From: Marsupella aquatica
Lineage: Eukaryota > Plantae > Marchantiophyta
DNA: 64,000 nucleotides
Assembly: GCA_973895155.1 (NCBI GenBank)
Contig: OZ316892.1
Coordinates: 21,453,619 to 21,517,618, forward strand
Direction: 5' to 3'
Of the stretch, positions 12,484 through 54,890 are shown in pieces (position 1 is the stretch's first letter; every line of letters starts with the position of its first letter). The notes below the pieces were generated by a model that made no database searches, was not told the origin of the DNA, and worked only from the letters and a program-made list of their open reading frames with translations. Made by a program: the position numbers and the translations under genes.

Positions 12484-15400
12484 ATGAGAACTAAAGCAGA
12501 CAACAGCGTGGCAACAGGTTGCTTCCACATGAAAAATCCGTTCGGCTCCAAAAAGGATCCAGGACCATTTGATGAGAAGCCGCGTAACTTGAGGTAATCA
12601 ATCTCTGCCTGCTCAGCCAATTGTATCTACGATTCGTTCTGTGTAGTTTAATTGATTTAGTGTGAGGAGACCTGAATTCCATCTGAAGGTTTTTTTGTGT
12701 GAACGTTTTCTGCGGTGCTTTAATGTCAGCAAGAATTAAAAAATCATCGACCCTTCGTACTGCTTATTTTGAAGTCAATCTTAGCGATATCAATCCATGT
12801 ACTGACTTTCTTTGAGGATCAGATTGGACGACAAAGTGGCGGTCATTACTGGCGCCGCTAGCGGCATTGGAGCTGCCACTGCCAGGCTTTTCGTGTCTCA
12901 AGGTGCGAGAGTGATCATCGCGGACGTCCAAGCCGAGGCTGGGAGGAAGCTAAGTTCGGAGCTGGGATCCTCCGCGCATTTCTTCCTTTGCGACGTGACC
13001 AAAGAGGCTGATGTCGCTGCGGCAGTCGACTATGCCGTCGAGTGCTGGGGCCACCTCGACATCATGTTCAACAACGCCGGCGTTCCGGGCCCTCTTGCTG
13101 GCCTAGCTGAAATCAACATGGAAGATTTTGACCAAGTTATGGCTGTCCACATTAAGGTCAGTGTACTGGAATCCGTGTGGTTCCACCATTACGCCAAATA
13201 AATACCCCTCTAATTAGCATTTCTATGCAGTTCAATCAGTACAATGTGCGGGCTCGGTTACATCTAAAATAAAATTCACGTTAGGTCATCTACACTCTTG
13301 ACCTGAGACAACGAATTGGGTTGATTTGCAATCTCCTCGAATAAACTTGCAGTCACCTCTTCAGTGATCACGCCATGAAATTAAAAGTAAATAAGCTCGA
13401 GCTTCGGGATGCCTGTGTACCCCGTTGTACTTCAGAAACTGTAACCTCGGACCGGGCCTCGGACGCGGATCCCGCCAATGAATTGAAAATGCTCACATTG
13501 TAAAGCAGGGCCTTTTCCACAGCTGACCGAGTCGAAATCGTGCTCTTATCTGAGCCACTCTCTTGAACATATGAACTAACGGAAATAGGAAAATATTTTC
13601 ACTAGTCGAAATCCAGAACTCCCGCATGTCGAAGCTTCTACAGGGGAATATACAGAAGAGCTTCGCGGCATACTTTCGTAGTGGAGGAAAAATGTGAGTT
13701 CAGAGCAAAGAACGCTACTTCTGTATGGTAATCAGGTAATGAGGGTATGGATGAACCTCATGTTAATCAGGTAATGAGGGTTTTTAGGCAACTATCACAG
13801 AGACTGATCTGACAAAACCTTTCTAACGAATCTGGCGATTGCAGCCAAAAAGTTGGGTGTCTGTTGCATTCTGCGGTGAATACAAGCAAAGACTCAGAAC
13901 TACGTATCGAAGTATCGAAGTATCGAAGTGACTGAATCTTACGTGGGATTTGCTGTTTTGATTTAGGGTGCGGTGTTGGGAGTAAAGCATGCGGCGAGAG
14001 TAATGATTCCTGCCCGCAAAGGAGTAATTCTGTTTTCAGGAAGCACATCGGCCAACATGGGAGGAGCTGGCCCACCTCTGCACTCGGCAGCCAATGCAGC
14101 TGTGCTTTGCATCGCCCGCTCGGCAGCAGCAGAACTTGTTCGGCATTGCATTCGCGTCAATGCAGTTTCGTCCCATTGCGTGGCCACACCCATGAGCCTT
14201 GCCACTATTAATGCATCCCTGAGCCCCAAAAAGGACATCACGATCGAGCAACTTGACAAAGTCCTGTCTGCTTCCAGCGAATTGGATACCTTGACAACGG
14301 AGAAAGTCGCGAGTGCGGTTATGTTCCTTGCCAGCGACGATGCGGGATTCATCAGTGGTCACAACCTGGTGCTGGATGGAGGATTCTCTGTAACGAAGCC
14401 ATTCGCTTCGTCCGAGTTGAAAGCGACGCTGAAGAAATCTCTAGCCGCCCAGCGCAACGCCGAGGCACGATCCCCGCTAAGATCTCCGACAAGATCTATA
14501 GAAGGGAGTGGTATGTCAAAGCCGTCTATAGTGAAAGAGCGAGAAGTAGCGGACAAACCGAGCATGGAGGAGGAGGTGAAGGGTTCGTACGAAAGGGAGA
14601 GAGATACACGGAAGGAGGAGAGAGAGGATAAGGAGAGGAACAAGCGGGAGAAGGAGACAAATGTCGAGGATCAAAAAGTTCGAGCCAGAGAAGAAAAAAC
14701 TCGAGCTAAGGAAACCAAGGCTTTAGCTCTGAATGGACAAGGTCCAGCCCAGGATCCGAAGAGTCGAGCTACGAAGGGAGATATCCATTCCTTGGACACA
14801 GAGGCTTCAGCCAAGGAAGCCAGGATTCAGAACGAGAACATCGAATTGCCGAACGCTGGGCCCGAGCCGGACATTCCCTTGGAATATCAATCGAGGACTC
14901 CGGTGAAGAACATCAGCAGCTTGTTCACCAGGGGCCGAAAGAACTCCAAGAAAGAGGGTCAAACGGAAGGCAAGTCTAACGATCCGGCTATAGTCGAGAA
15001 GGCTCATCCCAAGCGCAACTCTGACTTACCAAAGACTGCAGCCTCTCCAGATATTACCCCGGAATCCCGGTCGAAGCAGTCGCCGGTGAAGAGAATCAGC
15101 AGCTTGTTGGGCTTGGGGAAGGATTCCACGGACGAGGGTATAAAGGAGAAGAAGTCTGATGATCCGGGACAGGTTTCGACTAAGGAGAAGCAGGAAGCAA
15201 AGTCCGCCGATCCGAGACAGGCCTCCAAAAAGGAAGCACATTCTCCAGGCAAGGAAGACAAGGTTCAGCCCAAGAGCAACGACTCGCCGAAGACTGCAGC
15301 CTCTTCAGAAATGACCCCGGCATCTCAATCGAAGCAGTCGCCCGTGATGAGATCCGGCAGCTTGTTGGGAAAGGATTCCAAGAACGAGGATAAAAAGGAG

Positions 15401-16261
15401 AGCACGTCTGATGATCTGGGAAAGGTTTCGAAAAAGGAGAAGCACGAACGAAAGTCCGCCGATCCAAGAAACGTTTCCCAAAAGGAAGCAAATGCTCCGG
15501 CCATAGTAGAGGAGACTCAGCTCAAGCGCAAATCTGATTCACGAAAGATTGCAGCCTCTCCAGAAATTACCCCGGAATCCCAATCGAAGCAGTCACCGGT
15601 GACGAGAATCGGTAACTTGTTGGGCTTGGGAAAGGATTCCACGGAAGGGGATAAAAAGGAGATAAAGTTCGATGATTATCTGCGAAAGGTTTCGACGAAG
15701 GAAAAGCAGGAAGGAAAGTCCGCCGATACGAGAAAGATCTATAAAGAGGAAGCAGATCCTCCAGCCAAGGAACAAACGCCTCGGTCCAAGCGCAAAGACT
15801 CACCGAAGACTCAAGCCTCTCCAGCAATTAACCCGGGACCGAGCCCGGGACCTCAACCGACGCAGTCTCTGCTCCAGAGGATCGGCAGCTTGTTGGGCTT
15901 GGGAAAGGATTCCAAGAAAGAGACCAAAACGGTGAGCTGGGGAAAGGATACCGAGAAAGAGGACAACACGGAAGAGAACTTGAAGTCTCTCGATGCGGGA
16001 AAGGTTTCCAAACAGGAGAAGAAAGAGGACAAGTCTGCTGATACGGTAAAGGTCGCGACGAAGGAAACGAAGTCTCCAAGCAAGGAAGAAAAGGCTCGGG
16101 CAGTGAGCAAAGAGTCAACGAAGACTCCAGCCACTCCAGAAATTAGCCCGGAGCCCCAAACAAAGCAGTCTCCGGTAATGACGATCGGAAACTTGTTGAG
16201 CTGGGGAGCGGATAAAAAGAAAGGCAAGTCTGCCAATCCGGAGAAAGTTTTCAAGAAATAG
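12484..16261 (+). CDS. Short-chain dehydrogenase/reductase (plant ABA2/Tasselseed2-like SDR110C type), catalytically degenerate, with a long repetitive C-terminal extension; ~912 aa
   Basis: Exons 12484-12593 (alternative in-frame ATG at 12529), 12823-13156 and 13967-16261 join in frame. The R|LDDKVA intron position is typical of the family. Motifs TGAASGIG, CDV, NNAG, IRVNAVS and GHNLVLDGG are present, but YxxxK reads HSAAN. Confidence 0.9.
14860..16258 (+). repeat. Six in-frame protein repeats (~60-100 aa) in the SDR tail
   Basis: Core (A/S)SP.ITP.S.SKQSPV.RI..LLGLGKDS recurs at about 14896, 15078, 15335, 15590, 15863 and 16165, followed by K/E/D/S-rich segments containing KSAD. Confidence 0.9.
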
Positions 16262-19144: not shown

Positions 19145-19421
19145 GTGGAGGTGGTGTGGCAGGAGCGGATCCAGGAAGGTGATCGGCCAGGGAGCATTCA
19201 AGCACGTCATCCCTCGACTGCGAGGAGCGGGAAGTAGTCGCTGCTCGGTTGCCCGCCTCACGCATTGCCCTCCACTCTGCAGTTAGAGTGGAGGTGGTGT
19301 GGCAGGAGCGGATCCAGGAAGGTGATCGGCCAGGGAGCATTCAAGCACGTCATCCCTCGACTGCGAGGAGCGGGAAGTAGTCGCTGCTCGGTTGCCCGCC
19401 TCACGCATTGCCCTCCACTCT
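19145..19421. repeat. Near-perfect 134-bp tandem duplication (period 143) with an older diverged copy at about 18850-18930
   Basis: 19145-19278 matches 19288-19421. GGTGATCGGC...GGAAGTAATCGCTGCTCAGTTGCCC also occurs near 18856-18931. Confidence 0.9.
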
Positions 19422-20025
19422 AACTGCAGAGAAGCTTCTCCCTCCGGAGGGACACCTGCACCAGACTCCACGCTTCGAACGGGCGCGCCATCGACATGCG
19501 CTCGCCGGCCTTCAAGGGAGCTCATGCGCCATCATCTCCTACTCCCACACGGGTTACAAGCAGCCGTGACCCTGCTCAGATGGAAGGTAAGCTCGTCACT
19601 CGCGTATATATTGTCACTAAATCCGGCTCTGCAATGCTTATGGTTTTAATGATATTGAGTCCAGGAAGCCCGTAGCGAGACGCGTATGCTCTCTTTGTGG
19701 GACTGGTGCTAGAAAAGGGAGAAATTGGGACATGGAGGAAGAATAAGTCCCTGTAAGAGTTACCTTTGCATGTGGGTGGCCCTTGAGTTGCGGGTACTCA
19801 ATTGAACAGGTGCCATTCCAACATTGGAAGACATTTGTATGCCTCTTTCTATGGCAGGTGGACCGCATATGTGGTGAATAACCAAGGGCAAGGTCCTGAA
19901 CATTGGAAATGAATAAAACAAAAGAGAAATTTTGCACTCGGGAGATTCTGTGAAAATCCAAATTCACTCTTTCCCAACAATTTACTAGTGCTAGGGACCT
20001 TTATAAAAAATTGCTCTTGCATGGT

Positions 20026-22999: not shown

Positions 23000-25097
23000 C
23001 CTTAATGGTTTAAGAATCTTCTTCTTAAGCAAACGTGCATTCGAAATGTTCGGTTAGACTTATGTCTAATCAATCCCAAGAAGCTATCGCACACCGATGC
23101 TACTCAGCTCAATTAGAGAGACCCATAACTTGTCCCTTGTTGGAAGAAGATTTACTGCAATTAGTCTGGTTATACAACAGTACTCTGGAGAAGGTGAATC
23201 GAAAGCAGGATGCTGAGCTTGTGTATGCTGTGCATTTAAAGATTTTCAAGGAATTCGATATGCTAGTACAAACGGGCCATTTATTGAGAGAATTAAGCGT
23301 GAAGGGTATTATATAGTTGATATGCGAGATCCTTCATGCCTACACACTCCGTGCTGAAGAGCAGTATGTATAATTATACATTCTCCACCTGCGTTTTTTA
23401 TCGGATTCTTGATAGAAATCGAAATCTCAACGTGTCAGTTGAATCATCGACAGCAATCTTACTTTTTGAGCTAGATCTCATTTGACCTGGCTCTACCAAT
23501 AATTACAACCCTTTGTGAATCTTGAAGCGCGAACCTTCGGCCATCAGGTCATATGAAGTCTTGTGTGATATAATTAGTGGCTTCAAATTCTAAATGTTGC
23601 CATGACCACTTGCAACACAGCCGCTTGAACAGAAGCAATGATACCGAATGCGAATATGATACCCAACATTATCAATCAGCTGAAGGAAATTCCACGGGAA
23701 CTCCATAACCCATTTATACCTTCATCGCTAGTAAGGATCATTACTCTCTAATTTATGTAAGGATTTTTCTCACTTAGTAAAACCGTCGGGAAATTCCTCT
23801 CGTAATTGGGACTTGCCTTGCAGTACACATTGGCAAAAAACTTGGAAGGGGAATTTCTGGTATATATCCTGGGAATTGGTAGCGAAACTTCGGAACGCCG
23901 GATCCAGACATTATGAAACAGAAAATCGTTACAGAGCCCGTTACAGAGTTGGTCCAAGCGACGCCTTAAATCTGGCAAAACCCTCATCCAGTATAAGGTT
24001 ATATGGTTGTCGAGTGACTTGGATATTAGAACCGACTTCATAGCCAAATGTGGGTAGATCCTACCAAACACACCCTGCAGATTCTGAGGCTTTCTATTTG
24101 TAAATGAACTCAAGGTACAGTATCTCATCTCAAATTGAGTGACCTCTGAGGAAGCGAAAAGTGTCTCAGTTTTGTGCTCTCTTAAGCATCCAGTGGAAAC
24201 GGTCTGCCCATCCTTGCAAATCTAGCACACGAGAATAATGAGTAATTAACGAAATCTTTAGCCAAGCCATGGTCTTAGACACTTAAAATGATAGCACGTA
24301 CGATATTCAGATTGAGTCTAAGTAGATCAACGTCCTGACTATCGTAGATTGAGGTACGTTTTGAATGAGCTGGATCATATACGTACAAACTAACTGCTGC
24401 TACCTAGGGTCTCCTTCTATGTCTAGCTTCAAAATCTAGCTTCAAACTTGCTTTCCCGCTTGCTTTGTAGTATAGGATAGATTGACCTGTGAGTCTAGAT
24501 GCTTAAATCAAAACAGTCCATGGAGACAAGCATTTTCCTTTCTTGACTGTGCTCTTTTGCAACTTGTATTTTTAATTTTGCGAATGGAGTGTCAGTAAGA
24601 ATTTTGTCCATGGTCACTCAATTCTAGAGTGACCAAAAGTGCACAGCTGAAAAAAATAAAATTGCATCGTGATCGATAGGGTTCGATTCAAGCCAGGCTC
24701 AGCCCAAAAAACATGATTGAGCCATGCAAGCAGAGTGGCAGTACACCTTTGTTTGCAGTAAGAACTGCTGCCGACATATATTACCATAAGTTTTTGTAGA
24801 AATATAGTTAATCAGATCAGACGTCAAGTTATCATTGTCAACAAGGTCACCATAGGCCTTCAACAAGGTCACCATCGCCCTTGTGCACGTACAAAAAGAG
24901 AGAAGATTGAAAAGTCTAAGCTGCTCGAATCTCTCAAACCTGTCTCGTTTGAACTCGACGGCACCCAATGACTAGAAAGTGGAAACCAGTATCGGCAGAT
25001 TGGCTTCTTAGTAACACATTCCTTTCAACATGCACTAGTTTCAATCCTGGTTTACAATCTGAAGCTAGCTAGTGGAAGATCTACTCGATTCCCCTCC

Positions 25098-25698
25098 TCA
25101 TTTCTGCTCTTCTTCGGGATAGTATTTGTTCACCATCCCGAAAGTTGTTTTGATCTCCGCCGGAGTCTTGCCTGTGATAATGTCAGCAGCTCTTTGACAC
25201 GTCAATTCTAACAAATTTTGAATGTTGAGGTATCGGGCTGCCTGCAAGAAGCGAGAAGATAAGATTAGAGATCATAAAGTCACAGTAGAGGAACCTCAGC
25301 ACTTCCCACTAACCTGGAGGTCAAAGAAAATACTGCAAAGTAATTTACAGAGATACCCGGCCTACTCAGTACGTAAAACTTACGTTGATGAGACCCACAA
25401 GAGTGGCGTGATCGACCTGGAGAAACTCAGCATCACGCTGTTTGATTTCATCCTCTGTAGGTGCTGGCTTCTCCTCTGTACTCTGTTGAAACTGCCAATG
25501 ATATGTGCAATACTCTATGACCTTGCCCAGGATATTTCTGGAAACATTGGGCAAAGGAATTGTACTTTCGTTTCCAGTGACCTCGACGATATCTGTCAAC
25601 GTCTCTGAGTATTGCACAACGGAAATGTCCACTTCAAATATAACACCATCCGACGACTGGAGCTGCACCTTCCTGCTGACTCGCCTGTTGATTGACAT
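25098..25698 (-). CDS. SKP1: SKP1/ASK-like protein, copy 1 (152 aa, divergent, C-terminally truncated)
   Basis: Exon 1 is 25698-25384 ([14 protein letters not shown]...[21 protein letters not shown]...DAEFLQVD). Exon 2 is 25241-25098 ([30 protein letters not shown]...EEEQK*). A 1-nt deletion relative to copy 4 removes the terminal RRE.EWIF segment. Confidence 0.85.
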
Positions 25699-26744
25699 GT
25701 TGGTTGATCTGGTCCTTGCTTGATTGACTACCGGTCAGCATTATATCCTACTTAGTTGCTCTCCTCCAGGCGTTTTCTGCGCTTAGCCCAGAAGACCTAC
25801 CAACGAGTTTATCCTGTTGATCATGTGCATATTACAATTGTTGGCAACCAGGACGAAGCGATTCTTAGCTATATACTTCTTACGTTTACAGCCTCGATCA
25901 GATATGTGCGCAGCTTTATCTTTTACATGGTAAGATAGCCGAACGAACTCTATCGATCCACAAGTAGGAACGCTGGGAAAGTAACCTGTAACACAAAATA
26001 TACCAAGGATCGCGAGTAAAAGGTGCAAAGAAATGCATGTTATACTTGACGGTTAAGCTCAAAACTCGATCTAAAGATGTTGAATATGCACTCTGATGAT
26101 GTAAGCCGCTCCTGCCTCAACATAAAACTGAAGAAATCATCCTTGCTGATCGAAGAGCTACATATACTTGCTTGGAGAACAAAAGTATCGAAGCTTTTGT
26201 AGTCTTTGGTCAGTTTCGTATGACGCTAGCTGCTGAATGACTTCAAGGGAGCAAGTGTTTGGGTTCTGAGTCTTCTACGAAATCAAGCATTTGTAGTCTT
26301 TGGTCAGTTTGGTATGAATGCATTCAAGGGAACTCATCTGACAGGAACGAGAGCATTGGTGGGAGCCAGGGTTTAAATTTTTGACTGGCCGGCGGGGATT
26401 TGAAACAAGGGCTTTAATAACATTTTCAAATTAAAACACTTCACCGCATCACCACTGTTGCTCAAAAATGATTTCACCTCAACTTCATTCTGCAGTCTAT
26501 AATTGTTTGTTTAATGTTATTTAAATCTACTATGAATCCAACAGCAACCTAGCTTCTTGCAACACAACACCTTCTATTGAAAACACTTTTGCTTTGAAAA
26601 AAAATTCACTAGCTCATCAACACTTTCTCTCAAAGCATTGACCCAAAGGCAACAACAACGTACTTAATTTTTGAGCTGCAACACACAAGTATGATTGAGC
26701 CTCATCTTTAATGGTTGTTGGTAGTATTGAGCCTTACATTGGCA

Positions 26745-27180: not shown

Positions 27181-29117
27181 TTGGGATTTTTCATGCAATG
27201 CATTGCCATTGGGCTAGTAATATTTAGAACATTACTTAGGCTAGACCTATTGGCAGTAGACAAAACATATCACAACAAGGATACTTAGAAATATCTTTCA
27301 TTTTATGTTTTTTCAAATTCTCAATATATCTTAAGTTCATCTTTCCTCATCATCTGGTCTCTGATTTTCTTGCTAGGTTTTGTCACCTCTACCCTATCCT
27401 GAAATGTGTCTCGAGGGGTCACTCCATTGTTTGTTGTTTCCATGGCATGGACAAAATCCAAAACAACATTGTCCCTATCTTCCTCTGTCATGACAATTTT
27501 CACTATTTGGGTCTTTTTCTTGAACTCTTTTTCCAAGAATCTTAAAGGTTTTGGTCATGTGGATATATTACAATTGTTGTCAACCATGATGAAGCTGTTT
27601 CTTAGCTATATCCTTGTTACGATAGAGTCTCAGACATGTGTGTCTTAGCGTTTGTAGGTAAGTGTACAAATTCTCGTCTGAACACAAGAGAATAGGCAAA
27701 AACCCACTTATTACCAAAGGAAAATACAAATATATAAGTAGGATTTAAGAACACCAATATCAAACTAGGTAAAAGTCACACATAAGGTACTATAAATTTG
27801 ATTTCCAACCGGGGCATGTGACAGTTTTTGCGTGTGAATGTCAACAGCTATTATCTGACCAACAAGTCTGTACTATCATTGGCTCCTAGTTACATGTGTA
27901 CATACCCTAAACCCTTCCGATCTGTTCCCTGCCAATGTTTACTACAAGGCAGTCCCAAAAGTGAGAGTAGTTCTCCTAGGAATCCACTTAGTAAGAAAAA
28001 TCTTAATTTACATGTATGGAGTGTAATGACGCTTACTAGCTAGCGATGAAGATTTCAATAACTTATGGAGATCCCTTGCAGTTTTCTTCGCTGTTTGTTA
28101 ATGTAGGATACAATATTTGCATGCGGTTTATATTAGAGTCAATTAAAAAAGGTGTCGTGGATTTTCAAGCGTAATGGATAAATTAATTGGTTACTCGTGT
28201 TATGCCTTGGACATCACCTTAGCCTTTTGGTAGCATGGGCAATTTTAATAGCACAGTCTGCATGTCATCAGTCAATGAGCCCGAGGTTATTGCGCGTGAT
28301 ATCTATTGGTGGAACTTAATTATTAGGGTTTGTTTCCTTAAATATATAGCCTCACAGTAACCTCAGGGAACTCTTCCCGCCTGTGCGCGCGCAGCCTTAA
28401 TTAACGGCAGACCTCTGTTGTTAGTCACTGGCATGGGATTATTACTTAGTGCTGTGCGCGCATCCAGGCCTGATGGTTGCGTCTAGAACTCCTACAGCTG
28501 GTACAGCATGAAGTTCTTAGCCAATGTATAAGTAGGGTTATTACTGTGACTGGGGTTATCTAACCACTACTAGAATTGTAACGGCAGGCTCTTTCTTAGT
28601 CACTGATTGGGATTGCTGCTGGGACTTCTGATCTAGGTTGCAGGTCTGTCTCATTTAAGCCGGATGCCCCCACTCAATTCGCAGCATCTCAAGCATTTTG
28701 CCTTTTGCATTCTGTCATCTTAATTTTGGTGAGGAGCTTTGCACTGTAGGACTGGTGTTGCATTTCGGGAGCGCATTCAACGAGGTGGGCATTGTAAGTT
28801 TAGATACTCTGTTTGCGAGAGCAATGTCAGTTTCGTATTTGGCCAGTAGTCAAATTGCTGATTCTGAGTCCTGAGTGAGTCGTCAATTAACAGTGTTTTT
28901 TCTCGACTTAAACAATGGTGGGGAGGCGATGTGTGTTTTCTTTTGGTCTCTCACCTAAGCTATACCAACAAGTGCCAGAGCGTAGCTTGCTTTTAGTGAA
29001 ATATGTGTACGCGGCACAAATTGATTTACTCTTGGAAGCTGATGTTTTCAAGTTTAGATTCTAGTCAATATGAAGGGGTGTACTGAACATTTCAATGAAA
29101 TCTGAATTGCAGTCAAT

Positions 29118-31045
29118 ATGGACAGCAACCCTGCTGGTAATCTGACCTACGTGGGTCCTTCTTCGAGTTCTGTACATCTGCACACGGCAAGCTCAACATA
29201 TGAAGACCCAAGTGGATGGGACGGTGAAAACAATTGCAAGATGCCAAGTTCTGTGCTAACCACGATGGACCAAGACAAGGACATGCTCAATTTATGGGAC
29301 AATGTAAGCAACATATCGACTGCAGGAGTTTCACCGTCGCTGACCACCGGGGAGGTAGTCATGCAAGCTGGCATGCAAGCTGTCCTGAATACTGTACTTT
29401 TCGAGGACTACCTCACGGCGGAGGAAATTGAATTCCTGGATATGAGTGACAGGACTCACGAGTTGAAGGTGGAAATGCAGACCAAACAAAACCTACCATC
29501 AGCGACCCGAAGCAGTTGTGGAGTTGAAGATGGAATAGATATGAGTGGAAGTCTGGACGAATGTGAGAAGACACGGGCCAAGGATCAAGATATTGCACTC
29601 CCGGACATCATCGGAATAAAGTCCGCGAGGAAGGGGATCTCCCTGGGAGCCGACGATTGCCAACAGACAAGGATTCATCGCCACTCTAAAGCAGCTGTGT
29701 TGAGCATGAGGTAACATTTAAGGATTATATTCCATAAGTAGGTTTACACCTCTAGGTGATCGTAATGTGTTTGATTGAACAAATGAACTAACTTGGCGAG
29801 CTCTCATCATTCATGCAAGTATCAAAATTTCCACTTTTTGGGGGTTTGGAAGTGAATGTTATCTGGCTGGCATGCATTTCCGATGAATATGAATAGACAA
29901 TATTTTTAATTTCTCTACTTCCGTTGCAGGAACTTTTATGATAACGAAACTCCTTATCCCAACGATAGGCAGCTTTACAAGCTTTCGAAGCTCTCTGGGC
30001 TCACAATAAAGCAGGTAGCAGTTAATTTACTTTTGGTGCACCTCAGAAACTAGAAGGGGGCCAGAATTTTTGAATTGCATGTTAGCTACCTGAAAATCAC
30101 ACGAGTTTTTTAGCTATCAGAGAATATTTCAGCCGCAATTATTAATTTCAGCTTTCGAAAATACTTGTAGGTCAACACCTGGTTCGGCAACGAAACGGAG
30201 AAGAAACGGGAGATGGGCACAAACAGTGCTGGTGTCAGCTCTAAGAGACAGAACCACCACCCTGACGATGCAATCAGTGTGTTGAAGTATAAATTCGCTA
30301 CCAAGACCAGAACAGCTTCACTACTGTAGCTAATTGACTTCATTGCTAGTAGACAGTACTTGTAACAAGTAATTAATTGGCAGAGACTGGTTCTGCTTCT
30401 AGTTGTTGAAACTTTAATAGCTTGCAATGTTTTGAATACACAATGATTATCCAGGTATAGTATCTACCTACGTAGCGCGCTAGTCCAGCCAGTGAAATGC
30501 AACTTAAACTTGTGTTGTAAATCTCTCTGTATCTGTAGCATTCTGTGAACAACTGCTTGACAATCTTCGTGGTGTTTATTCAGAGCATGGGTCGAAACCC
30601 ACCCTGAAAATGCAAGGCCAACTAAGGAGGAGAAAATTCAGCTGGCTAACGAAGCCAAACTCACCTTGAAAAAAGTAAGTAAAGGCGCGCACTTTCCCAG
30701 CACAACTCCTGGCACAATTTTCCTTCAACTCTGTCGAAAAAACCCCAACAGTGTCATCTGGAGTAGCTTATATTCTGGAATTTTAAATGCAGAGTGTCAT
30801 CTGGAGTAGCTTATATTCTGGAATCTTAAATGCAGGTATCATACTGGTTCGAGAATTATTGTAGGAAGCAACGGAAACTTGCCTATAAATTGGAGAAAAA
30901 TCAACTGGCGAAGATTGAGGGATGGCTATTCGACGACTCAGAACCTGAAGAACAAGGATTAGAAGCTTTGCGACTAGATGTGTGGGAATCCTGCATCAAG
31001 ACCGGCCCTCTAAAGCTAGGAAATCTTGGGGCCGGACCCCAGTAA
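29118..31045 (+). CDS. Double-homeodomain protein, TALE (BELL/KNOX-related) type, divergent; 364 aa
   Basis: Exons 29118-29710, 29930-30014, 30171-30286, 30584-30674 and 30836-31045 total 1095 nt and stay open. HD1: HSKAAVLSMRNFYDNETPYPNDRQLYKLSKLSGLTIKQVNTWFGNETEKKR. HD2: HPDDAISVLKAWVETHPENARPTKEEKIQLANEAKLTLKKVSYWFENYCRKQRK. Confidence 0.85.
30750..30835 (+). repeat. 43-bp tandem duplication that duplicates the intron-4 splice acceptor of the homeobox gene
   Basis: AGTGTCATCTGGAGTAGCTTATATTCTGGAAT(T/C)TTAAATGCAG at 30750-30792 and 30793-30835. Confidence 0.9.
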
Positions 31046-31265: not shown

Positions 31266-31560
31266 CCGGTCAGCGTTATTTATACCCTAGTTGCTCTTTC
31301 CACCAGGCGATTTCTGACGGTGAAGCTTAACTAAAAGCCTGAAGCCCGATCTGAAGATGTGATTACGTACGTACTCTGAAGATGCTTGGGTCCAAACAAA
31401 CATCTGCCTCAACCAAAACCTAAACCAATGATCCTTGCTCTAGAGATGTTGTAGTCTTTGGTCAGTTTGATATATATGATGCTGCTGAATGAACTCAAGG
31501 GGATATCCAAGTCTTTGGTCTCTAGCTTAGTCACATGGCAGGAGAGCATGCAATGGTTGA
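31266..31560 (-). promoter_or_regulatory. Orphan copy of the SKP1-like upstream/promoter region, with TATAAATA on the minus strand
   Basis: 31266-31313 aligns with 25731-25777, immediately upstream of the SKP1 copy 1 ATG. 31313-31560 aligns with 26045-26370, including TTGTAGTCTTTGGTCAGTTT. TATTTATA on + at 31277-31284 reads TATAAATA on the minus strand. Confidence 0.65.
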
Positions 31561-44860: not shown

Positions 44861-44924
44861 CTATGACCTTGGCCAGGATATTTTCTTGAAACCTGGGCAA
44901 GGGAATGGTACTTTCGTTTCCAGT
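44861..44924 (-). pseudogene. Inverted fragment of SKP1-like exon 1
   Basis: The reverse complement reads ACTGGAAACGAAAGTACCATTCCCTTGCCCAGGTTTCAAGAAAATATCCTGGCCAAGGTCATAG. It is followed by the same spacer (44925-45130) that follows copy 3 (49101-49300). Confidence 0.8.
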
Positions 44925-45844
44925 AATTCAAACGGTGAGTGAGCTGAAAATTTCCAAAGTCTCATTTGAGCGGATTTTCTTATTAGTTGTACTGACCACC
45001 AAGGACATTCAGGTGCATGTAACCAGGAACCAATGATACTACTTGTTGGACAATAGCTCTAGGAATTTGATTATGTTCTCTTTGAATTGTTGCAGCGTCC
45101 TAACCTGTTGCAAGGAATGCCCGGCTAGTGTACGTTCCCCGCCGACCAGTCTAAAATTTGGACTCTGGCTCCCACCAATGCTTTCGTTCCTGCCAGATGA
45201 GTCAGAGACCAAAGACTTGTCCCCTTGAATGCATTCATATCAAACTGACCAAAGACTACAAACCCTTGCTTGCCGTAGGTGACTCGATCAGACACCAAAC
45301 ACTTGTTGCCTTGCAGTCATTCAGCAGCGTCATACAAAACTGACGAAAGACTACAAAAGCTTCCTTTTGTTCTCCGAGCAAGTATATATAGCTCTTCAGC
45401 AAGGACGATTTCTTCAGTTTTATGTTGAGGCAGGAGCGGCTTGCATCATCAGAGTGCATATTCAACATCTTCAGAGTTTTGAGCTTAACCGTCAGGTATT
45501 AGCATGCATCTCTTTGCACCGTTTACTCGCGATCCTTGGTATGTTTTGCGTTATAGCTTACTTTCCCAGCTTTCCTACTTGTGGATCGATAGAGTTCGTT
45601 CGGTTATCTTGCCATGTAAAAGATAGAGCTGCGCAATATCTGACCAAGACTGTAAAATTAAAAAGTACATAGCTAAGAAATAGCTTCATCCTGGTTGCCA
45701 ACAGTTGTAATATGCACATGATCAACAGGATAAATTCGTTGGCAGGTCTTCTGGGCTAAGTGCATAAAACGCCTGGAGGAAGAGCAACTAACTAGGATAT
45801 AAGGCTGACCGCTAGCCAATCAAGCAACGACCAGATCAACCAAC

Positions 45845-46529
45845 ATGTCAATCAACACGCGAGTCAACAGGAAGGTGCAACTCAAGTCGTCGGATGGTGT
45901 TATATTTGAAGTGGACATTTCCGTTGTGCAATACTCAGAGACATTGACAGATATCGTCTAGGTCACTGGAAATGAAAGTACAATTCCTTTGCCCAATGTT
46001 TCCAGAAATATCCTGGCCAAGGTCATAGAGTATTGCGCATATCATCGGCACTTTGAACAGATTACAGATGAGAAACCAGCAGCTACGAACGATGAAATCA
46101 AACGGCGTGATGCTGAGTTTCTCCAGGTTGATCATGGCACTCTTGTCGGTCTCATCAACGTAAGTTTTACACACTGAAGCAAGCTCATTTATTTCGTGAC
46201 TAGGGTGTTTCTAAACTTCGTGACTAGGGTATTTCTCTTGATTACATTGCAGAATTTACTTTCACCTCCAAGTTAGTGGGTAGTGCTGAGGTTCCTCTAA
46301 CGTGACTTTATGAACTCCAATCTTATCTTCTTGCGGGTGTTCTTGCTTCTTGCAGGCAGCTCACTACCTCAATATGAAAAATTTGTTAGATTTGGCGTGT
46401 CAAAGAGCTACTGACATGATCACAGGTAAGACTCCTGCTGAGATAAGATGAAATTTCGGGATGGTCAACCACTACGATCCCGAAAAAGAAGGGGAATGGA
46501 GGAGGGAAACCAAGTGGATCTTTCACTAG
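45845..46529 (+). pseudogene. SKP1: SKP1-like copy 2 (two premature stops)
   Basis: Exons 45845-46159 and 46356-46529; in-frame TAG at 45959-45961 and TGA at about 46449-46451. The unit 45150-47225 is an inverted paralog of 24276-26400. Confidence 0.85.
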
Positions 46530-48552
46530 CTAGCTTCAGATTGTAAACCAGGATTGAAAGTAGTCCATATTGAAAGGAATGGCTTCGAGATATGTTTGTT
46601 GATAGGAGGCCAATCTGCCAATACTGGTTTCCACTTTCTAGTCAATGGGTGCGGTTCGTTGGGTGCGGTCCAGTTCAAACGAGACAAGATGTTTGAGAAA
46701 TTAGAGCAGCTTAGCTAGACGTTTCCAGTCTCTTTTATTAAACAAGGCCTATAGTGACCTTTTGACAATGATGGCCTGATGTCTGATCTGATTAACTATA
46801 TTTCTACAAACACTTATTGTGATGTATTTCGGCAACGCTTCTTACTGCCAACAAAGATGTACTGTCACTCTGCTTGCATGGCTTGATTATGTTTTTTCGC
46901 TGCGCCTGGCTTGAATCGGACCCCTTTTTTTCCTCAGCTGTGCACTTTTGGTTACTCTAGACTCCATGGAGTATTTTGTTTTAAATCTAATACATTTCAG
47001 AAAAATTTCTAGACTCACAGGTCAAACTATCCTATACTATAACGCAAGCTGGAAAGCAAGTTGGAAGCTAGATTTTGAACTAGACATAGAAAGAGACCCT
47101 AGAAGGCAGCAGTTAGCTTGTATATAATACAGCTCATTCAAAACCTCAAGCTACGATATAGTCAGGAAGGTGATCTTTCTAGGCTTAATCTGAATATCGT
47201 ACGTGCTATCATTTTAACTGTCTAACCATGCACCAAAGTGCAGAATTGTGATTGATGGGGAAGAAAAATAACCCATGTGGGCAAAAGAAGGGAGACATAA
47301 AATTAATATGTCTTAAAAATGGGAGTACCAATAGAATGGTGGGCGTACCCAATGCAAAGTGAGAGGAGCACGCGATGATCCATGAAATTCAATCCCCCGC
47401 CTCCAACATATATACAATGTGGGAGGGGCTAGTAAGGGTGAATAGATAATAACCAACCCTAAAAACCTATGATTATACTCTAAAAACAATTTAAGACCAT
47501 TAGAAAGAAAAAAACCCACCTTCCCAAGAAAACAGAAACCCCTCACCTTACCCCTGTAGAAAAAGTTTGAAAATGGGGTTGAATCTTTTGTTGGAGCTAG
47601 GGACTTTGCCACATGTCCTTAAATAAAAACCCAAGTTGTCAAGAATGCTAGAACAAAACGGTTCTAGAAAAAAAATATTAGTTGTCTTAAGTTTTCTTTA
47701 AAAGATTAAAATCAATCCTGAAAGTACTTGTTAAGATTAGTTCTGGGTAGTTTATATTTATTTCACATTATCTTGAAAATTGTTTCATCAAGTTTCACGA
47801 CTTCCCACTATATCAAAGTAGTCAAAATCATTGCATTCATTCAACCACAAATTAAGATAGAAATGTTTTAAAATGTTCTTTCTAAAATTTGGAATGAATC
47901 CAAAAGGTGATTCATACCAGAATTGCTGGCTACATTCAAAATCAGATATTGATTTGCCCATTACTCATTCAGTTTTGGGTTCTTGATGTTGGGGGTGAAA
48001 TCCACTAGCTACCATTTTCAGTAACATATCTTATCTACAAAATAGCGCGCATTTTATCCAAGAATACCACTGAGAAGTTAACATAAGCAGTCTATGGGGC
48101 TCATGGTCAGCTTCAAAATAATTCAAAACATGCATAGTTTTGGAGTTTTATTCACACAACGTAACCATTCAAGCAGAGTGACAGGACATCTTTGTTGGCA
48201 GTAAGAAGCGCTGCCCAAATACAGTACCGCAAGTTTTTTTAGTTTTTTTTCATTACCATAAGTGTTTGCAGAAATATAGTTACTCAGATCAGACGTCAAG
48301 CTATCATTGTCAACAAGGTCACCATAGCCCAATAAAAGAGAGAAGATCGACTGGTAACGTCTAAGCTGCTCTAACTTCTCAAACAACTTGACGTCTCGAT
48401 TGAACTGGACCGCACCCCAGGACTAGACCGCACCCAATGATCGACTAAGTGGAAACCAGTATTGGCAGATTGGCCCCCTATCAACACACATATCTCGAAG
48501 CCATTCCTTTCAATATGGTCGACTACTTTCAATCCTGGTTCACAATCTGAAG

Positions 48553-49100
48553 CTAGCTAGTGAAAGATCCACTTGATTCCCTCCTCATTTCCGCTTCTTG
48601 GTCGGGATCATAGTGGTTCACCATCCCGAAAATTCGTCTGATCTCCGCAGGAGTCTTGCCCGTGATCATGTCAGCAGCTCTTTGACACGTCAAAACTAAC
48701 AATTTTTTCATATTGAGATAGTGGGCTGCCTGCAAGATGCAAGAAGAACCACAAGAAGATAAGATTGGAGCTCATAAAGTCACCGTAGAGGACCTCAGCA
48801 CTACCCACTAACCTGGAGGTGAAAGAAATACTGTAATGTAGTCAAGAGAAATACCTTAGTCACGAAGTTTAGAATTAAATGAGCTTCCTTCAGTGTGTAA
48901 AACTTACGTTAATGAAACCGACAAGAGTGCCATGATCGACCTAGAGAAACTCAGTATCACGCCGTTTGATCTCATCATCAGTAGCTGCTGGCTTCTCATC
49001 TGTAATTTGTTCAAACTGCCAATGATATGCGCAATACTCTGACCTTGGCTAGGATATTTCTGGAAACCTGGGGCAAGGGAATGGTACTTTCGTTTCCAGT
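48553..49100 (-). pseudogene. SKP1: SKP1-like copy 3 (5'-truncated, frameshifted)
   Basis: Exon 1 remnant at 49100-48908 has a 2-bp deletion (GTCAGAGTAT). Exon 2 at 48729-48553 has a 1-nt deletion near the end. The first ~40 codons and the promoter are missing. Confidence 0.85.
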
Positions 49101-50067
49101 AACCCAAACGCTGAGTGAGGTGAAAATTTCCAAAGTCTCATTTGAGCAGATTTTCTTATTAGTTGTACTGACCACCAAGGATATTCAAGTGCATGTAACC
49201 AGGAACCAATGATACTACTTGTTGGACAATAGCTCTAGGAATTTGATTATGTTCTCTTTGAATTGTTGCCTAACCTGTTGCAAGGAATGTCCGGCTAGTG
49301 GACGTTTAATTGGGTACAGGTGCTCTCTGAAGCGCCTTTTTTAACCCCACTGGCCAGTGAAAAAGTAAAACCCTGGCTCCAACGAATGCTCTCCTGCCAG
49401 ATGACTCAGAGACCAAAGAGTTGTCCCCCTCAATGCATTCATACCAAACTGACCAAAGACTACAAACGCTTGATTTCGTAGGTGAGTCAAAGACCAAACA
49501 CTCGTTGCCTTGCAGTCATTCAGCAGCGTCATCCGAAACTGACGAAAGACACTAAAAGCTTCATATTGTTCCACAAGCAAGTATATATAGCTCATCAGCA
49601 AGGATGATTTCTTCTTGTTTAATGTTGAGGCAGGAGCGGCTTGCATCTTCAGAGTGCATATTCAACATCTTCAGAGTTTTGAGCTTAAAGTACCGTCAGG
49701 TATAGCATGCATCTCTTTGCAGCTTTTACTCGCGATCCTTGGTATATTTTGTGTTACAGCTTACTTTCCTAGCTTTCGTACTTTGGATAGAGGCTATCTT
49801 GCCATGTAAAAGATGGAGCTGCGACATCTTTGATCGAGACTCTTAACACTCTAAAGGTAAAAAGTATATATATATAGGCAACATATCGCTTCATCCCCAT
49901 TGCCAACAATTGTAATATGAACATGATCTAAACCTTTCAACAGGAGAAATTCGCGCGTTGGCAACTCTTCTGGGCTATGAGAAGAAAACTCCTGGAGCTA
50001 GGGAAGGGCAACTAGGTATGGTCTATCGCTGACCGTAGTCAAGCAAGCAACGACCAGATCAACCAAC

Positions 50068-50738
50068 ATGTCAATCAACAGGCGAGTCAACAGGACGGTG
50101 CAGCTCAAGTCGTCGGATGGTTTTTTATTTGAAGTGAACATTTCCGTTGTGCAATACTCAGTGACGTTGACAGATATAATCGAGGTCACTGGAAACGAAA
50201 GTACCATTCCCTTGCCCCAGGTTTCCAGAAATATCCTGGCCAAGGTCAGAGTATTGCGCATATCATTGGCAGTTTGAACAAATTACAGATGAGAAGCCAA
50301 CAGCTACTGATGATGAGATCAAACGGCGTGATGCTGCGTTTCTCGAGGTCGATCATGGCACTCTTGTCGGTCTCATCAACGTAAGTTTTACACACTAAAG
50401 CAAGCTCATTTATTTAATTCTAAACTTTGTGACTAGGGTATTTCTCTTGATTACATTGCAGTATTTTCTTTCACCTCCAGGTTAGTGGGTAGTGCTAAGG
50501 TTCCTCTAACGTGACTTTATGAACTCCAATCTTATCTCCTTGCGGGTGTTCTTGCTTCTTGCAGGCAGCCAACTTCCTCAATATGAAAAATTTATTAGAT
50601 TTGACGTGTCAAAGAGCTGCTGACATGATCACGGGAAAGACTCCTGCGGAGATCAGACGAATTTTCGGGATGCTGAACCACTATGATCCCGAAGAAGAAG
50701 CGGAAATGAGGAGGGAAACCGAGTGGATCTTTCACTAG
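50068..50738 (+). pseudogene. SKP1: SKP1-like copy 4 (2-bp frameshift in exon 1, canonical exon 2)
   Basis: Exon 1 is 50068-50380 (313 nt versus 315 in copies 1 and 2; deletion near 50248). Exon 2 is 50565-50738 and ends [15 protein letters not shown]. Confidence 0.85.
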
Positions 50739-53128
50739 CTAGCTTCAGATTGTAAACTGTAAACCAGGATTGAAAGTAGTCCATATATATTGAAAGGAAT
50801 GGCTTCGAGATATTTGTGTTGATAAGAGGCCAATCTGGCAATACTGGTATTCCACTTTCTAGTCATTGGGTGCGGTCCAGTTCAAACGAGACAAGATGTT
50901 TGAGAAATTAGAGCAGCTTAGCTAGACGTTTCCAGTCTCTTTTATTGAACAAGGCCTATTGTGACCTTGTTGACAATGATGGCCTGAAGTCTGATCTGAT
51001 TAACTATATTTCTACAAACACTTATATTTCGGCAGCGCTTCTTACTGCCAACAAAGATGTACTGTCACTCTGCTTGCATGCATGGCTCGACTATGTTCTT
51101 CCGACTGAGACTAGCTTGAATCTTCTTACCCGATCACGATGCAATAACCCGCATTGGATAACATTGCTCATTTAGGGGATTACCATGTTCTTGTGACGAA
51201 TTTGGAGTGCCTAAATTATGTGGCCTGTGTTCGATCAATTCCCAGTCAGAGCTTAATCTTGATTGGTAGGATCTGAGATCAGGACAGGGTTAGGGTCTGT
51301 GACTGAACATTAACAGGACACACTAGAACTACATGTCGTGGTCTTATTTTGAATTGTGAGCACGGTTCACAAGCCTCCAACAAATTAATAAAATAATTAA
51401 GAAGAAAAATTTATTTAACACGATGTCTACTACAAGCCGCGGAAAACTGAAATATGGGCGAAAAGTACTTGAAATAATCCAAATTCCGAAAAGTACTAGA
51501 AGCAATCCAAATTCCGACAAAAGGATCACTCTCTACATGGGGCTCAGTCAATAAAATTACATTCTTGACTGGCAAAAAGGAGATAAACTGTGTACATAGT
51601 TAACTTCTAACCACAATTCATCACCATGTTTAGTTGCCTTAAACCCAGGTTAGGTTAGAATTAAGCATGGTTAGTTAAGAGAGTACATATATGAGGGCCA
51701 CACAGAATGTTAAAACTACAATGCCTTAATGCTCCCCCATTTTCCTGGAGCTCCGTACTGCCCGTCCCAGTCCCCAATGTTGTTGCCTGCTCCGACCCAA
51801 GTTTGCCAAAATATAAACCAAGACTCTACCATTTTGTCACTCCCTCCAGGCTGATCAACTTTGTGTCATTGGTTTCAGGTTTATTTTCTAGCAGCCTTCA
51901 CTGGTTGTGGCTTGCACCCAAGTCCCCAATGGTGTTGCCCGCTCCCGCCCAAGATTGTAAACCAAGACTCTATCATTAGTCATGACGTCTCTCATTCAAA
52001 GTACTAGGCTTTTGCCTGAACACTTAGACTCTATTATTAAATAGGCATGACTCTATGGAAATAGTGTTGCCAATTATACATAAGTCACAACTCTATAGAG
52101 AAGAAACATGTGGCAGCCAAAGTGTAAAATTGTGATTTATGAATGTAAAATTGGGCCAAAGTGGGCAGTAGCATCGGGGACTCAAGCGGGCAATTTATGG
52201 AGCCTCAGGACAATGGGGGAGCATTACCAGGTTCTAGATTTAATGTGCGATGGGCCCAGGGCCACAAAAGTGGTTTCATTTTCACACCCCATGACGTACC
52301 AAGAAATTTCTTGCCCTTTGTGGATAATTATCCCTGCCTGCAGCTATCCATGACTCCCGCCTTGACTCCAATCAATTAAGTTACACAAATAATGTGAATT
52401 GTGAGCAAACATGATTGTGTGATGGCATGAAAGAGTCTGACGTGTTATGTCAGTACCACGACCCAAGACATGCAATCTTTGGTATATAGTCAGCTTTGAA
52501 TTGACAACTCTTTACTGTGGTATATTACATCATAAAATTGATACGTCATGCTTTGGGCAGCCGTGGTCCGTACAAAGTGCACTACCCATGGCAAATATCT
52601 GGGAGTTAAATTGTGACAATGAAGTTCTGACAAATTTGACCCAGCTGTCCTCCATTTATGTTCAATTCAAAACAATGTGCACTACATCTTTTGTTGAGCT
52701 CCAAAAAGCTCAAGGGACAACAAATAACACATGTATGTACAAAGTTACTTGTAACTGCCATAAGAATTGGACACTGGAAAATACTCTTCTTGTGATCTGC
52801 AGCATCAACTAGAATGGGAGATGTAACAACTTTAACAATGAGGGGTTACTCTTTATAACTTGGCACAATAGTTGGGTGAGAACTTCTGCTTGCATGGGTT
52901 GCATAATTAGCTCAGAAATTGGGAAGATTTTGCCTTTAGCTTGGTAGGAGTTGGGCCATCTCATTTTGCCTCCACATTTTCAAGATATCCTTGGTCTCAG
53001 TGTCAAGATTGATGTTGAATACGCAATGTAAGCATATTCATGAACATTTGAGTCTTAGAGCTCTCAAGCGTTGCAGTCCTGTTTGAGCCAATACCTAGCC
53101 TATTGTGCTTGAGCTAAAACCTTGAATG

Positions 53129-54890
53129 TGTTGTAAGGGATAAACCCTAACCCTGATTACCTAGACTCACCCTAGTATATAGGGAATTGAGGCGGTTACA
53201 TAATCACCATACCATGTACTATATAGGGAGTTATTTACACTCCCACAATCAGTGAGAAGGAAGTGAGTTTGCCGGTGCATTGGTGTCTATGGTGTGCATA
53301 ATACGTTATCAGCACGACTCTCTAATCTGAGCAGAATTTTATTTTTTTCAATTACTCATCCTTCCACGGAATGAGGCTTATGGCCAGTGACTCGTAGCAT
53401 GTAACATTTTTTTTATCTAGCCATATTCATCGAATTAAGGTGCCCACTTTGAATTATTGAGTGATCAAAATCCGTCATACATGCGCAAAATCAAAAATTG
53501 AAGAAACAGGAGCGCAAGCATCTGGACACCAATATACACGAGAGATCTTGCACCTTCGATCAACACAAGGAAGTTTCTCAAAATTCCTTTGCATTTGAAT
53601 TATCATCTCAAGGCCAGTTTAACAGCGCTGAATTTTACAATATCCAGGCAGATCATAACACTTTGATTCCTGAATATAACTCAATTTATATTCTGATCAT
53701 CATAAACATAGTAGACGCATGAACATGAATTCGATCAAGAAGCTTCAATTTAAGGCCCTAACCATTGATGGCACAAATTATTTATCATGGTCACTGGACG
53801 TTGAAGCATATCTTGCATCAAAAGACCTGGCTTCAGGACTCAATTTTAACTGATGCAGGCCTAACTTTACAGCAAAAGGCAAGAGCATTAATCTTTATTC
53901 GTCACCACCTTGCAGAGCCACTCAAGATCCAATTCCTAAATCAATTTAACCCCCGAATCCTCTGGGAGGATCTGAAATTAAGGTTCGATCACATGCGACT
54001 GGTTTCCCTGCCAGCCGCCCGCCATGATTGGATAAATTTGTGGGTACAGGACCATACTTCCATATCCAATTACAATGGCAAACTCTTCCGAATTATTTCA
54101 CAGCTGGCAGTCTGTGGCCACCCAATTGGCGGCGACGAGCAAATCGAACGCACCCTATCAACGTTCAGCGCAGGAAATCTCCTCCTTGCATCACAATACA
54201 GAAATATGGGATTTACAAAATATTCAGAACTCATTGCTCATATGCTTCTTGCAGAGAAGCATCAATTACTCCTCCTGGAAAATGCAAAATCTCGCCCACC
54301 AGGGTCTGCCGCACCCCCACCTAAACCTGAAATCAACTTCAATTGACAGAACGATAGAGCAAGAGGCAGAGGGCGTGGAAATTTCAAGGGGAGGAGGGGA
54401 CAAACCTATGGCCGAGGCAGAAATCAACAACGTGGCAGGGGCAATGACCAACCTGAAAGGGGAGGCCAAACCTTCGGAAATTTTAATCGAAGAGGCGGAC
54501 AACGAGGACAAGGTGGTGGATACAGAGACAGAGGCCGAGGGGAGGCCGCGGAAGGGGATACAATAATTGGATAAGAGAGAATGATAACTCTGCAAAATGC
54601 TTCAGGTGCGACACAAAAGGACACTTATAGAGAGATTGTCGAGTACCTCAGGCCCATTTAGTCAAAATTTACAAGCAAAGCATTGAAACACCCAGTAATG
54701 AAGCCTATGGTAACTACATGGAAACTACAGATAACATTGAGGATTATGCACCAGGCCAAGTAGCACCTGACGTCCATACTTCTCGATTAGGATCTAATCC
54801 CTCTCTTCTGGACAATCATCACAATTGTATTGTTGATAGTGGCACATCTCATTCAATCCTACGCCACAAAGACTTCTGTGGAATGACACA
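53129..54890 (+). mobile_element. Truncated Ty1/Copia LTR retrotransposon (Bianca-like): 5' LTR, PBS, gag and start of protease
   Basis: Short LTR at about 53129-53302 is followed by CGTTATCAGCACGA (Bianca-type PBS). Gag starts at ATG 53725 (MNSIKKLQFKALTIDGTNYLSWSLDVEAYL, then a frameshift to ALIFIRHHL...LWEDLK.RFDH). A CFRCDTKGH..RDC knuckle lies near 54595 and protease CIVDSGTSHSIL near 54826. No INT or RT. Confidence 0.85.

What the first reader, a model, noticed from the sequence alone, without database searches (positions are those of the whole stretch)
29118..31045. Hidden double-TALE homeodomain gene built by internal duplication of a three-exon module
Seen: splicing five exons gives an uninterrupted 364-aa protein with two homeodomains separated by a short linker. 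Both are interrupted at the same two points, a phase-2 intron in helix 1 and a phase-0 intron between residues 44 and 45. HD2 has the TALE three-residue loop and BELL-like AISVLKAW..H. HD1 keeps PYP and has WFGN. Established: plant TALE proteins (KNOX, BELL) normally have one homeodomain with I50 and R53 plus MEINOX or POX domains, and act as heterodimers that include the zygotic switch. Here residue 50 is G or E, residue 53 is T or C, and I recognise no MEINOX or POX domain. Inference: a lineage-specific tandem-TALE protein with altered or lost canonical DNA binding, perhaps an intramolecular dimer or a decoy for KNOX/BELL partners.
Basis: partly seen in the sequence, partly recalled or inferred. 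Interest (0 to 1): 0.82.

Follow-up and report, generated by a model that had tools for sequence, protein, structure and literature searches.

The report
Twin-homeodomain BELL-type plant gene
A plant gene is predicted to splice five exons into a small protein with two homeodomains in tandem, a layout already published for the sperm-delivered BELL proteins of the liverwort Marchantia, so it is likely a fast-evolving new member of that group rather than a new kind of regulator.

Summary
Observation largely confirmed by computation: five GT..AG exons (29118-31045) give an open 364-aa frame with two homeodomains, each cut at 17(2/3) and 44/45. No RNA run was available to confirm splicing. Corrections: HD1 has a one-residue loop insertion, not the TALE three. 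Its T53 is private to this assembly: all three other DNA runs that cover the site read canonical R53. G50 is the PBX hallmark, not a sign of lost binding. This gene shows the same pattern (HD2 43 bits, HD1 27 bits). Membership by phylogeny could not be tested: every homolog search was empty, and 'liverwort' rests on unchecked notes. Best reading: a compact BELL-gamete-type paralog of a multicopy family, likely acting with KNOX1 at fertilisation. The scan already noted a three-homeodomain gene elsewhere in this genome and read it the same way. Low to moderate interest.

The parts
29085..29112 (+). Acceptor-like site (..TTGCAG) 5 nt before the ATG; likely end of a 5' UTR intron, an upstream coding exon not excluded
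   Evidence: Sequence; no convincing upstream coding exon among 9 listed ATG-to-donor candidates; no further homeodomain piece in the window
29118..29710 (+). Exon 1: acidic, Ser/Thr-rich N-terminal region (about 181 aa) and the N-terminal arm and start of helix 1 of HD1
   Evidence: no Pfam domain; single-sequence fold uninformative, pLDDT 38
29711..29929 (+). Intron 1, phase 2, in codon 17 of HD1
   Evidence: a diverged paralog stops matching at 29925 in all four runs
29930..30014 (+). Exon 2: HD1 end of helix 1, +1 loop, PYP, helix 2, turn
   Evidence: Pfam Homeobox_KN E 4.3e-4; best PDB match PBX1 E 0.68, weak; 0 substitution rows among those shown
30015..30170 (+). Intron 2, phase 0, HD1 position 44/45 (donor GTAGCA, weak)
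   Evidence: loose end at 30017 in X4
30171..30286 (+). Exon 3: HD1 helix 3 (WFGN), 6-residue linker, HD2 arm and start of helix 1; the fused junction exon of the duplication
   Evidence: 30196 C>G gives R53 in X1, X3, X4
30287..30583 (+). Intron 3, phase 2, in codon 17 of HD2 (donor GTATAA, weak)
30584..30674 (+). Exon 4: HD2 end of helix 1, TALE +3 loop, ARP for PYP, helix 2
   Evidence: Pfam Homeobox_KN E 9.6e-5; all 11 PDB matches at E up to 10 shown are TALE proteins (Meis, PKNOX1, TGIF; best E 0.052)
30675..30835 (+). Intron 4, phase 0, HD2 position 44/45; holds a 43-nt tandem duplication (30751-30793 / 30794-30836) that gives a second acceptor at 30792
   Evidence: paralog match ends at 30684 in all four runs; the upstream acceptor would shift the frame and remove HD2 helix 3 (318 aa)
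30836..31045 (+). Exon 5: HD2 helix 3 (WFEN) and a 53-aa acidic, aromatic-rich tail; stop TAA
29661..30218 (+). HD1 (residues 182-242, 61 aa), the more degenerate domain
   Evidence: 26.7 bits, matched only from PYP to helix 3
30237..30883 (+). HD2 (residues 249-311, 63 aa), full-length TALE-type domain
   Evidence: 43.1 bits over profile positions 3-59 of 63

Best explanation
The gene has five exons predicted to encode two tandem homeodomains, and it is likely a compact, fast-evolving member of the BELL-gamete type of TALE proteins (like MpBELL2/3/4 of Marchantia) that would be loaded into sperm and would act with egg KNOX1 or with other BELL-gamete proteins to switch on the zygote programme. 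Shown: open five-exon frame; two domains with the same intron positions; non-KNOX intron pattern (44/45, not 27/28); the C-terminal domain is the better conserved; no Pfam MEINOX/POX/PBC; close and distant copies in related DNA runs, with conservation that stops at the exon borders. Inferred: splicing; liverwort origin; clade membership; sperm expression; partner binding. Mechanism committed to: an old tandem duplication with breakpoints in the exons flanking the homeodomain turned three exons into five. HD2 kept the TALE loop and helix 1 and is likely the main partner-contacting and nuclear unit (basic tail after WFEN). HD1 lost two loop residues but keeps a PBX-like G50/N51/R53 recognition helix in the population and likely adds DNA contact. 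The acidic N- and C-terminal regions would act as activation surfaces. As one of several paralogs it would be partly redundant, as MpBELL2 is.
For: Architecture match to MpBELL2/3/4: two or three homeodomains by intragenic duplication, C-terminal one most conserved, no discernible PBC domain, found throughout liverworts (PMC8476127). The homeodomains of MpBELL3, 4 and 5 each span three exons (bioRxiv 10.1101/2020.04.06.027821, figure legend). Same gradient here: HD2 43.1 against HD1 26.7 bits, and HD2 closer to all 4 reference TALE domains, 17-19 against 13-16 identities of 63. The 44/45 intron is listed for GLX, Class-B, PpBELL1 and PBX1; the land-plant KNOX rows seen have 27/28 (PMC6219170 supplement). 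Plant genome: Plant_SRP RNA at 19290-19580, E 7.9e-41. Constraint: 19 coding substitution rows, 8 synonymous and 11 not, pN/pS 0.37, p 0.034; the three exonic indel rows shown keep the frame or the stop. Function of the Marchantia genes: antheridial expression, KNOX1 binding by BiFC for MpBELL4, karyogamy arrest in mutants.
Against: No MpBELL2/3/4 sequence was retrieved, so no phylogeny and no comparison of the 17(2/3) intron. All homolog searches were empty (the one locus is an opposite-strand chance match to a bacterial dehydrogenase-like frame). 'Liverwort' comes from unchecked notes, not from my tests. HD2 lacks PYP and R53 and has E50, which is hard to square with ordinary TALE DNA binding (recalled knowledge). 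MpBELL2 is described as only two homeodomains and MpBELL3/4 as large; this protein has a 181-aa N-terminus and matches neither exactly. Donors of introns 2 and 3 are weak and intron 4 has a competing acceptor. The substitution rows are a best-supported subset (40 of 224 and 40 of 50 rows) that mixes alleles and paralogs; exon 3 is not depleted of variants (8 in 116 nt).
Confidence: 0.62

Rival explanations
1. An independent, lineage-specific duplication of the homeodomain in another algal-type BELL gene (for example GLX-basal, MpBELL5-like); same kind of job as a KNOX partner, but convergent on the BELL-gamete layout.
For: MpBELL5's single homeodomain also spans three exons; GLX-type genes carry 44/45; no detectable homolog in any library.
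Against: A multi-homeodomain clade with the same conservation gradient is already spread through liverworts; the HD1-HD2 split is old, with no DNA similarity left, which fits an ancient shared event better than a private one.
Confidence: 0.13
2. A non-DNA-binding decoy that sequesters KNOX or BELL partners, as proposed for the homeodomain-less MpKNOX1A/B.
For: HD2 has E50, C53 and no PYP; HD1 helix 3 carries E52 and E54; decoy TALE proteins are proposed in Marchantia sperm.
Against: Both domains keep W48, F49, N51; HD1 has R53 in 3 of 3 covering runs; G50 is normal in PBX; no known dimerisation domain is present for sequestering.
Confidence: 0.12
3. A self-sufficient double-homeodomain activator whose two domains bind a bipartite site together without KNOX, working like animal DUX4.
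For: 6-residue linker; acidic, aromatic-rich termini; no MEINOX/POX/PBC; ectopic MpBELL3 alone activates sporophyte genes (PMC8793881 passage).
Against: MpBELL4, with the same layout, binds MpKNOX1, and KNOX1 is absolutely required; HD2's recognition residues are degenerate.
Confidence: 0.08
4. A recently silenced or decaying copy (pseudogene) of a multicopy family.
For: Private R53T change; duplicated acceptor in intron 4; some copy in all four runs has a 50-nt step back in exon 1 of unknown frame.
Against: Intact frame, start, stop and all splice dinucleotides; pN/pS 0.37; exonic indel rows in frame.
Confidence: 0.05

Closest known systems
BELL-gamete clade: MpBELL2 (Mp4g09650), MpBELL3 (Mp8g02970), MpBELL4 (Mp8g07680), Marchantia polymorpha (PMC8476127)
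   Same: Several TALE-derived homeodomains in one chain from intragenic duplication; C-terminal domain most conserved; no PBC or POX domain; each domain over three exons (stated for MpBELL3 and 4); paralog family
   Different: 364 aa with an acidic 181-aa N-terminus (MpBELL2 is only two domains, MpBELL3/4 are large); HD2 has ARP, E50, C53; sequence and intron positions of the Marchantia domains could not be compared
Canonical land-plant BELL (PpBELL1, MpBELL1)
   Same: 44/45 intron; helix 1 of HD2 resembles BELL/KNOX type
   Different: No POX; first intron at 17(2/3), not 24(2/3); two homeodomains; no PYP in HD2
GLX / GLX-basal / Class-B algal TALEs (MpBELL5, HDG1)
   Same: 44/45 intron; non-KNOX; HDG1 also has a helix-1 intron (14/15)
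   Different: Single homeodomain; other intron position and phase; no PBL motif recognised here (not tested with a profile)
PBX (PBC class)
   Same: G50 and PYP in HD1, 44/45 intron
   Different: No PBC domain; HD1 lacks the three-residue loop; likely convergence
DUX4 double-homeodomain proteins (search listing only)
   Same: Two homeodomains with a short linker; link to zygote activation if the BELL-gamete reading holds
   Different: PRD-class animal proteins (recalled), unrelated origin; analogy only

Membership tests
BELL-gamete (MpBELL2/3/4) | Two or three homeodomains in one protein | tested here: met
   Two domains in the computed splice; splicing itself not shown by RNA
BELL-gamete (MpBELL2/3/4) | C-terminal homeodomain most conserved, upstream ones more degenerate | tested here: met
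   HD2 43.1 bits full length, HD1 26.7 bits partial, on a 4-sequence profile
BELL-gamete (MpBELL2/3/4) | Each homeodomain spans three exons | tested here: met
   feature from legend (also true of MpBELL5 and PpBELL1, so not specific)
BELL-gamete (MpBELL2/3/4) | No discernible PBC, POX or MEINOX domain | tested here: met
   No such Pfam hit in five exon frames at E up to 5
BELL-gamete (MpBELL2/3/4) | Homeodomains group with MpBELL2/3/4 in a phylogeny; shared intron positions | not testable with these tools
   No homolog retrieved; the paper's alignment is a figure, and supplement 1 held no text
BELL-gamete (MpBELL2/3/4) | Host is a liverwort or early-diverging moss | tested here: inconclusive
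   Plant shown by SRP RNA; liverwort only from unchecked notes
BELL-gamete (MpBELL2/3/4) | Antheridial or sperm expression; KNOX1 interaction | not testable with these tools
   No RNA holder listed; no KNOX sequence of this organism in hand
TALE superclass | Three extra residues between helices 1 and 2 (HD2) | tested here: met
   63-aa domain; Homeobox_KN best Pfam hit
TALE superclass | Three extra residues between helices 1 and 2 (HD1) | tested here: not met
   +1 only; exon 2 is 85 nt against 91 nt. TALE-derived by PYP and Homeobox_KN as best Pfam hit
Canonical BELL | POX domain and 24(2/3) intron | tested here: not met
   feature
KNOX | MEINOX/ELK domains and 27/28 intron | tested here: not met
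   feature

The most novel reading that the evidence does not exclude
A compact plant double-homeodomain factor that no longer needs a KNOX partner: a PBX-like HD1 (G50, N51, R53) and a TALE HD2 with a new specificity (E50, C53), six residues apart, read one bipartite DNA site, and acidic tails activate it. A sperm-delivered, expanding and fast-evolving family of such genes would be a plant parallel of DUX4-type zygote activators and a candidate for species-specific fertilisation barriers.
Probability: 0.1. Interest if true: 0.7.

Novelty: new member of a known kind. Interest (0 to 1): 0.3.

Why it matters
The multi-homeodomain BELL-gamete proteins start the diploid programme in Marchantia, yet my searches found the clade name in one paper only, and I found no account of what the extra homeodomains do or which DNA they bind. 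A 364-aa two-domain version is much easier to express than the very long MpBELL3, so it is a handy test object for that question. It does not open a new class of regulator.

Tried and rejected
No whole genome is held, so paralogs could not be read in full. No RNA holder listed: no evidence either way. Homolog searches with single exons or an exon alignment found nothing: exon 1 against longer proteins, 0 of 590 candidates; exon 5, 0 of 23; exon 2+4 alignment, 0 of 54 at E up to 10; exon 5 against 1.84 billion representatives, 0 at E 0.001; metagenome contigs, 0 of 194 and 1 of 154 stretches, the one rejected as chance; exact look-up, 0 of 6. These used fragments only, so they are weak evidence of absence. 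ESM Atlas: exon 4 frame, best hit Homeobox_KN at 0.79, a lead only; the neighbouring dehydrogenase gave no lineage. Exon 5 against PDB gave chance matches only. Single-sequence fold of exon 1: mean pLDDT 38, uninformative. A pattern scan of viral contigs gave 13 loci, none a homeodomain; of 10 loci from genome contigs 4 were real TALE domains and were used for the profile, 6 dropped. Alternative splice choices (donors 30020 and 30280, acceptor 30792) were rejected because they break homeodomain register or frame, but RNA has not excluded them. Intron and exon pairs show no DNA similarity (113-531 of 1000 shuffles reach the score), so a recent duplication is rejected. Canonical BELL and KNOX membership rejected on domains and intron positions. 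No complex prediction was run: no partner sequence from this organism was in hand.

Full report
Observation. Splicing 29118-29710, 29930-30014, 30171-30286, 30584-30674 and 30836-31045 gives 1095 nt, 364 aa and one stop; all four introns are GT..AG, with phases 2, 0, 2, 0. Sixteen boundary combinations were tried and four stayed open beyond 330 aa; the other three add two residues in HD1 helix 3, remove two from HD2 helix 1, or both. Chance is excluded: 2 of 3461 YAG sites in the window are followed in frame by xxxWFxN, and both are in this gene. Pfam finds Homeobox_KN in exon 2 (E 4.3e-4) and exon 4 (E 9.6e-5), each under the curated cut-off as a fragment. A profile of four TALE domains, taken from eukaryote-like contigs inside genome bins and checked against Pfam, scores the spliced protein at E 6e-21 among 2627 targets, with HD1 at 26.7 and HD2 at 43.1 bits; the best shuffle reached 5.9 bits, and no other homeodomain piece appeared in the window. 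No RNA run was listed, so the junctions are predicted, not shown.

Independent support from DNA. Four DNA runs of two coded organisms hold the stretch. They show a close second copy or allele along the gene, and a more distant copy that matches only at exons: its similarity ends at 29925 (at the end of intron 1), at 30017 (3 nt into intron 2; X4 only) and at 30684 (10 nt into intron 4). These borders agree with the computed splice. Among the rows shown (40 of 224, 40 of 50), 19 substitutions are coding: 8 synonymous, 11 not, pN/pS 0.37, binomial p 0.034. Exon 2 has 0 and exon 4 has 2 rows, against 29 in introns 2 and 3; exon 3 has 8 and intron 4 only 1, which does not fit as well. Of 22 distinct indel rows shown (12 of 57 and 12 of 18), three lie in exons: -6, +9, and +1 inside the stop codon, which stays TAA. 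Against this, one contig in each run steps back 50 nt in exon 1, frame unknown. These counts mix alleles and paralogs and are a subset, so they are a hint of constraint, not a dN/dS.

Anatomy and corrections. HD1 (residues 182-242) and HD2 (249-311) are six residues apart and share 14 of 60 positions (0 of 5000 shuffles reach the score). Each is cut at 17(2/3) and 44/45, and no DNA similarity is left between the paired exons or introns. The simplest origin is an old tandem duplication with breakpoints in the exons on either side of the homeodomain, which makes exon 3 a fused junction exon (inference). Only HD2 has the TALE three-residue loop, and it has ARP for PYP; HD1 keeps PYP but has a one-residue loop. 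G50 is the mark of PBX proteins (PMC2959044 passage; PBX1 row), which bind DNA (recalled). So HD1 has a plausible recognition helix, though flanked by E52 and E54, while HD2 (E50, C53, then a basic run) is the odd one. The N-terminal 185 aa are acidic and Ser/Thr-rich with no Pfam domain. Intron 4 holds a 43-nt tandem duplication with a second acceptor that would remove HD2 helix 3.

What it is. The window is plant DNA (Plant_SRP RNA; weak copia gag match). Other notes on this genome call it a liverwort; I could not test that. The 44/45 intron puts the gene on the non-KNOX side: in the rows I saw of the Joo 2018 supplement, land-plant KNOX genes have 27/28, PpBELL1 has 24(2/3) and 44/45, HDG1 has 14/15 and 44/45, and Klebsormidium GLX genes have 44/45; none of the rows I saw lists 17(2/3), but I did not read the whole table. 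Dierschke 2021 (sections 5 and 11 and passages) describes MpBELL2/3/4: two or three homeodomains from successive intragenic duplications, the C-terminal one most conserved, no discernible PBC domain, relatives throughout liverworts and some mosses, rapid evolution. The preprint's legend says the homeodomains of MpBELL3, 4 and 5 each span three exons. This gene meets the four structural features I could test. The defining one, phylogenetic placement, I could not test: no relative was retrieved by any search, the published alignment is a figure, and the preprint's supplements are closed.

How it likely works. By analogy with Marchantia, where MpBELL2/3/4 are expressed in antheridia, MpBELL4 brings MpKNOX1 into the nucleus and bell3/4 mutants arrest at karyogamy, the protein would be sperm-loaded and act with egg KNOX1 or other BELL-gamete proteins in the zygote. 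HD2 would be the main partner-contacting unit, HD1 an added DNA contact, and the acidic ends activation surfaces. All of this is inference (0.62). Rivals: convergent duplication in another algal-type BELL (0.13), a decoy (0.12), a KNOX-independent double-domain activator (0.08), a decaying copy (0.05).

Novelty. The layout is published, and the scan noted a three-homeodomain gene elsewhere in this genome with the same reading (unchecked; a sequence look-up found no look-alike note). What the extra domains do was not found in print in my searches. Papers seen: PMC8476127 (sections 5 and 11, passages, supplement list, one supplement without text); its preprint, PMC8478417, PMC8793881, PMC2775110 and PMC2959044 (passages); PMC6219170 (passages and rows of supplementary file 1); DUX4 papers (listing and start of abstract only). 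Verdict: likely new member of a known kind; interest 0.3.

Noticed in passing
window 12806-16261 (+): A two-exon-or-more short-chain dehydrogenase gene (adh_short) whose last exon runs on in frame for about 620 residues of K/E/S/P-rich imperfect repeats (internal DNA repeats 14983-16258): an unusual enzyme-repeat fusion.
   Followed up: partly
window 19290-19580 (-): Plant SRP RNA gene; 134 nt at 19145-19278 and 19288-19421 are an exact duplicate, so a partial second copy lies beside it.
   Followed up: no
window 30751-30836 (+): 43-nt tandem duplication of the 3' end of intron 4 creates two acceptors; contigs of X1, X3 and X4 break at about 30780, which suggests that the repeat is shared. It could give a short isoform without HD2 helix 3.
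   Followed up: partly
window 29522-29571: One contig in each of four runs steps back 50 nt within exon 1: some family copy has an internal repeat there, frame unknown.
   Followed up: no
window 24268-26414, 44861-46961, 48165-51145: A repeat family of about 2 kb in several copies and both orientations, 74-85% alike, with short pieces near 31449-31557 just downstream of the gene.
   Followed up: no
window 53762-54566; 57303-61962: Copia-like gag remnant (PF14223, E 0.0012) and several long open frames of likely transposon origin; the two scanned from 57306-60611 had no Pfam match.
   Followed up: no
L016, L018, L020, L021: Genuine TALE homeodomains in contigs of genomes filed as bacterial: likely eukaryotic contamination of those bins; L018 and L020 are from the same bin.
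   Followed up: partly
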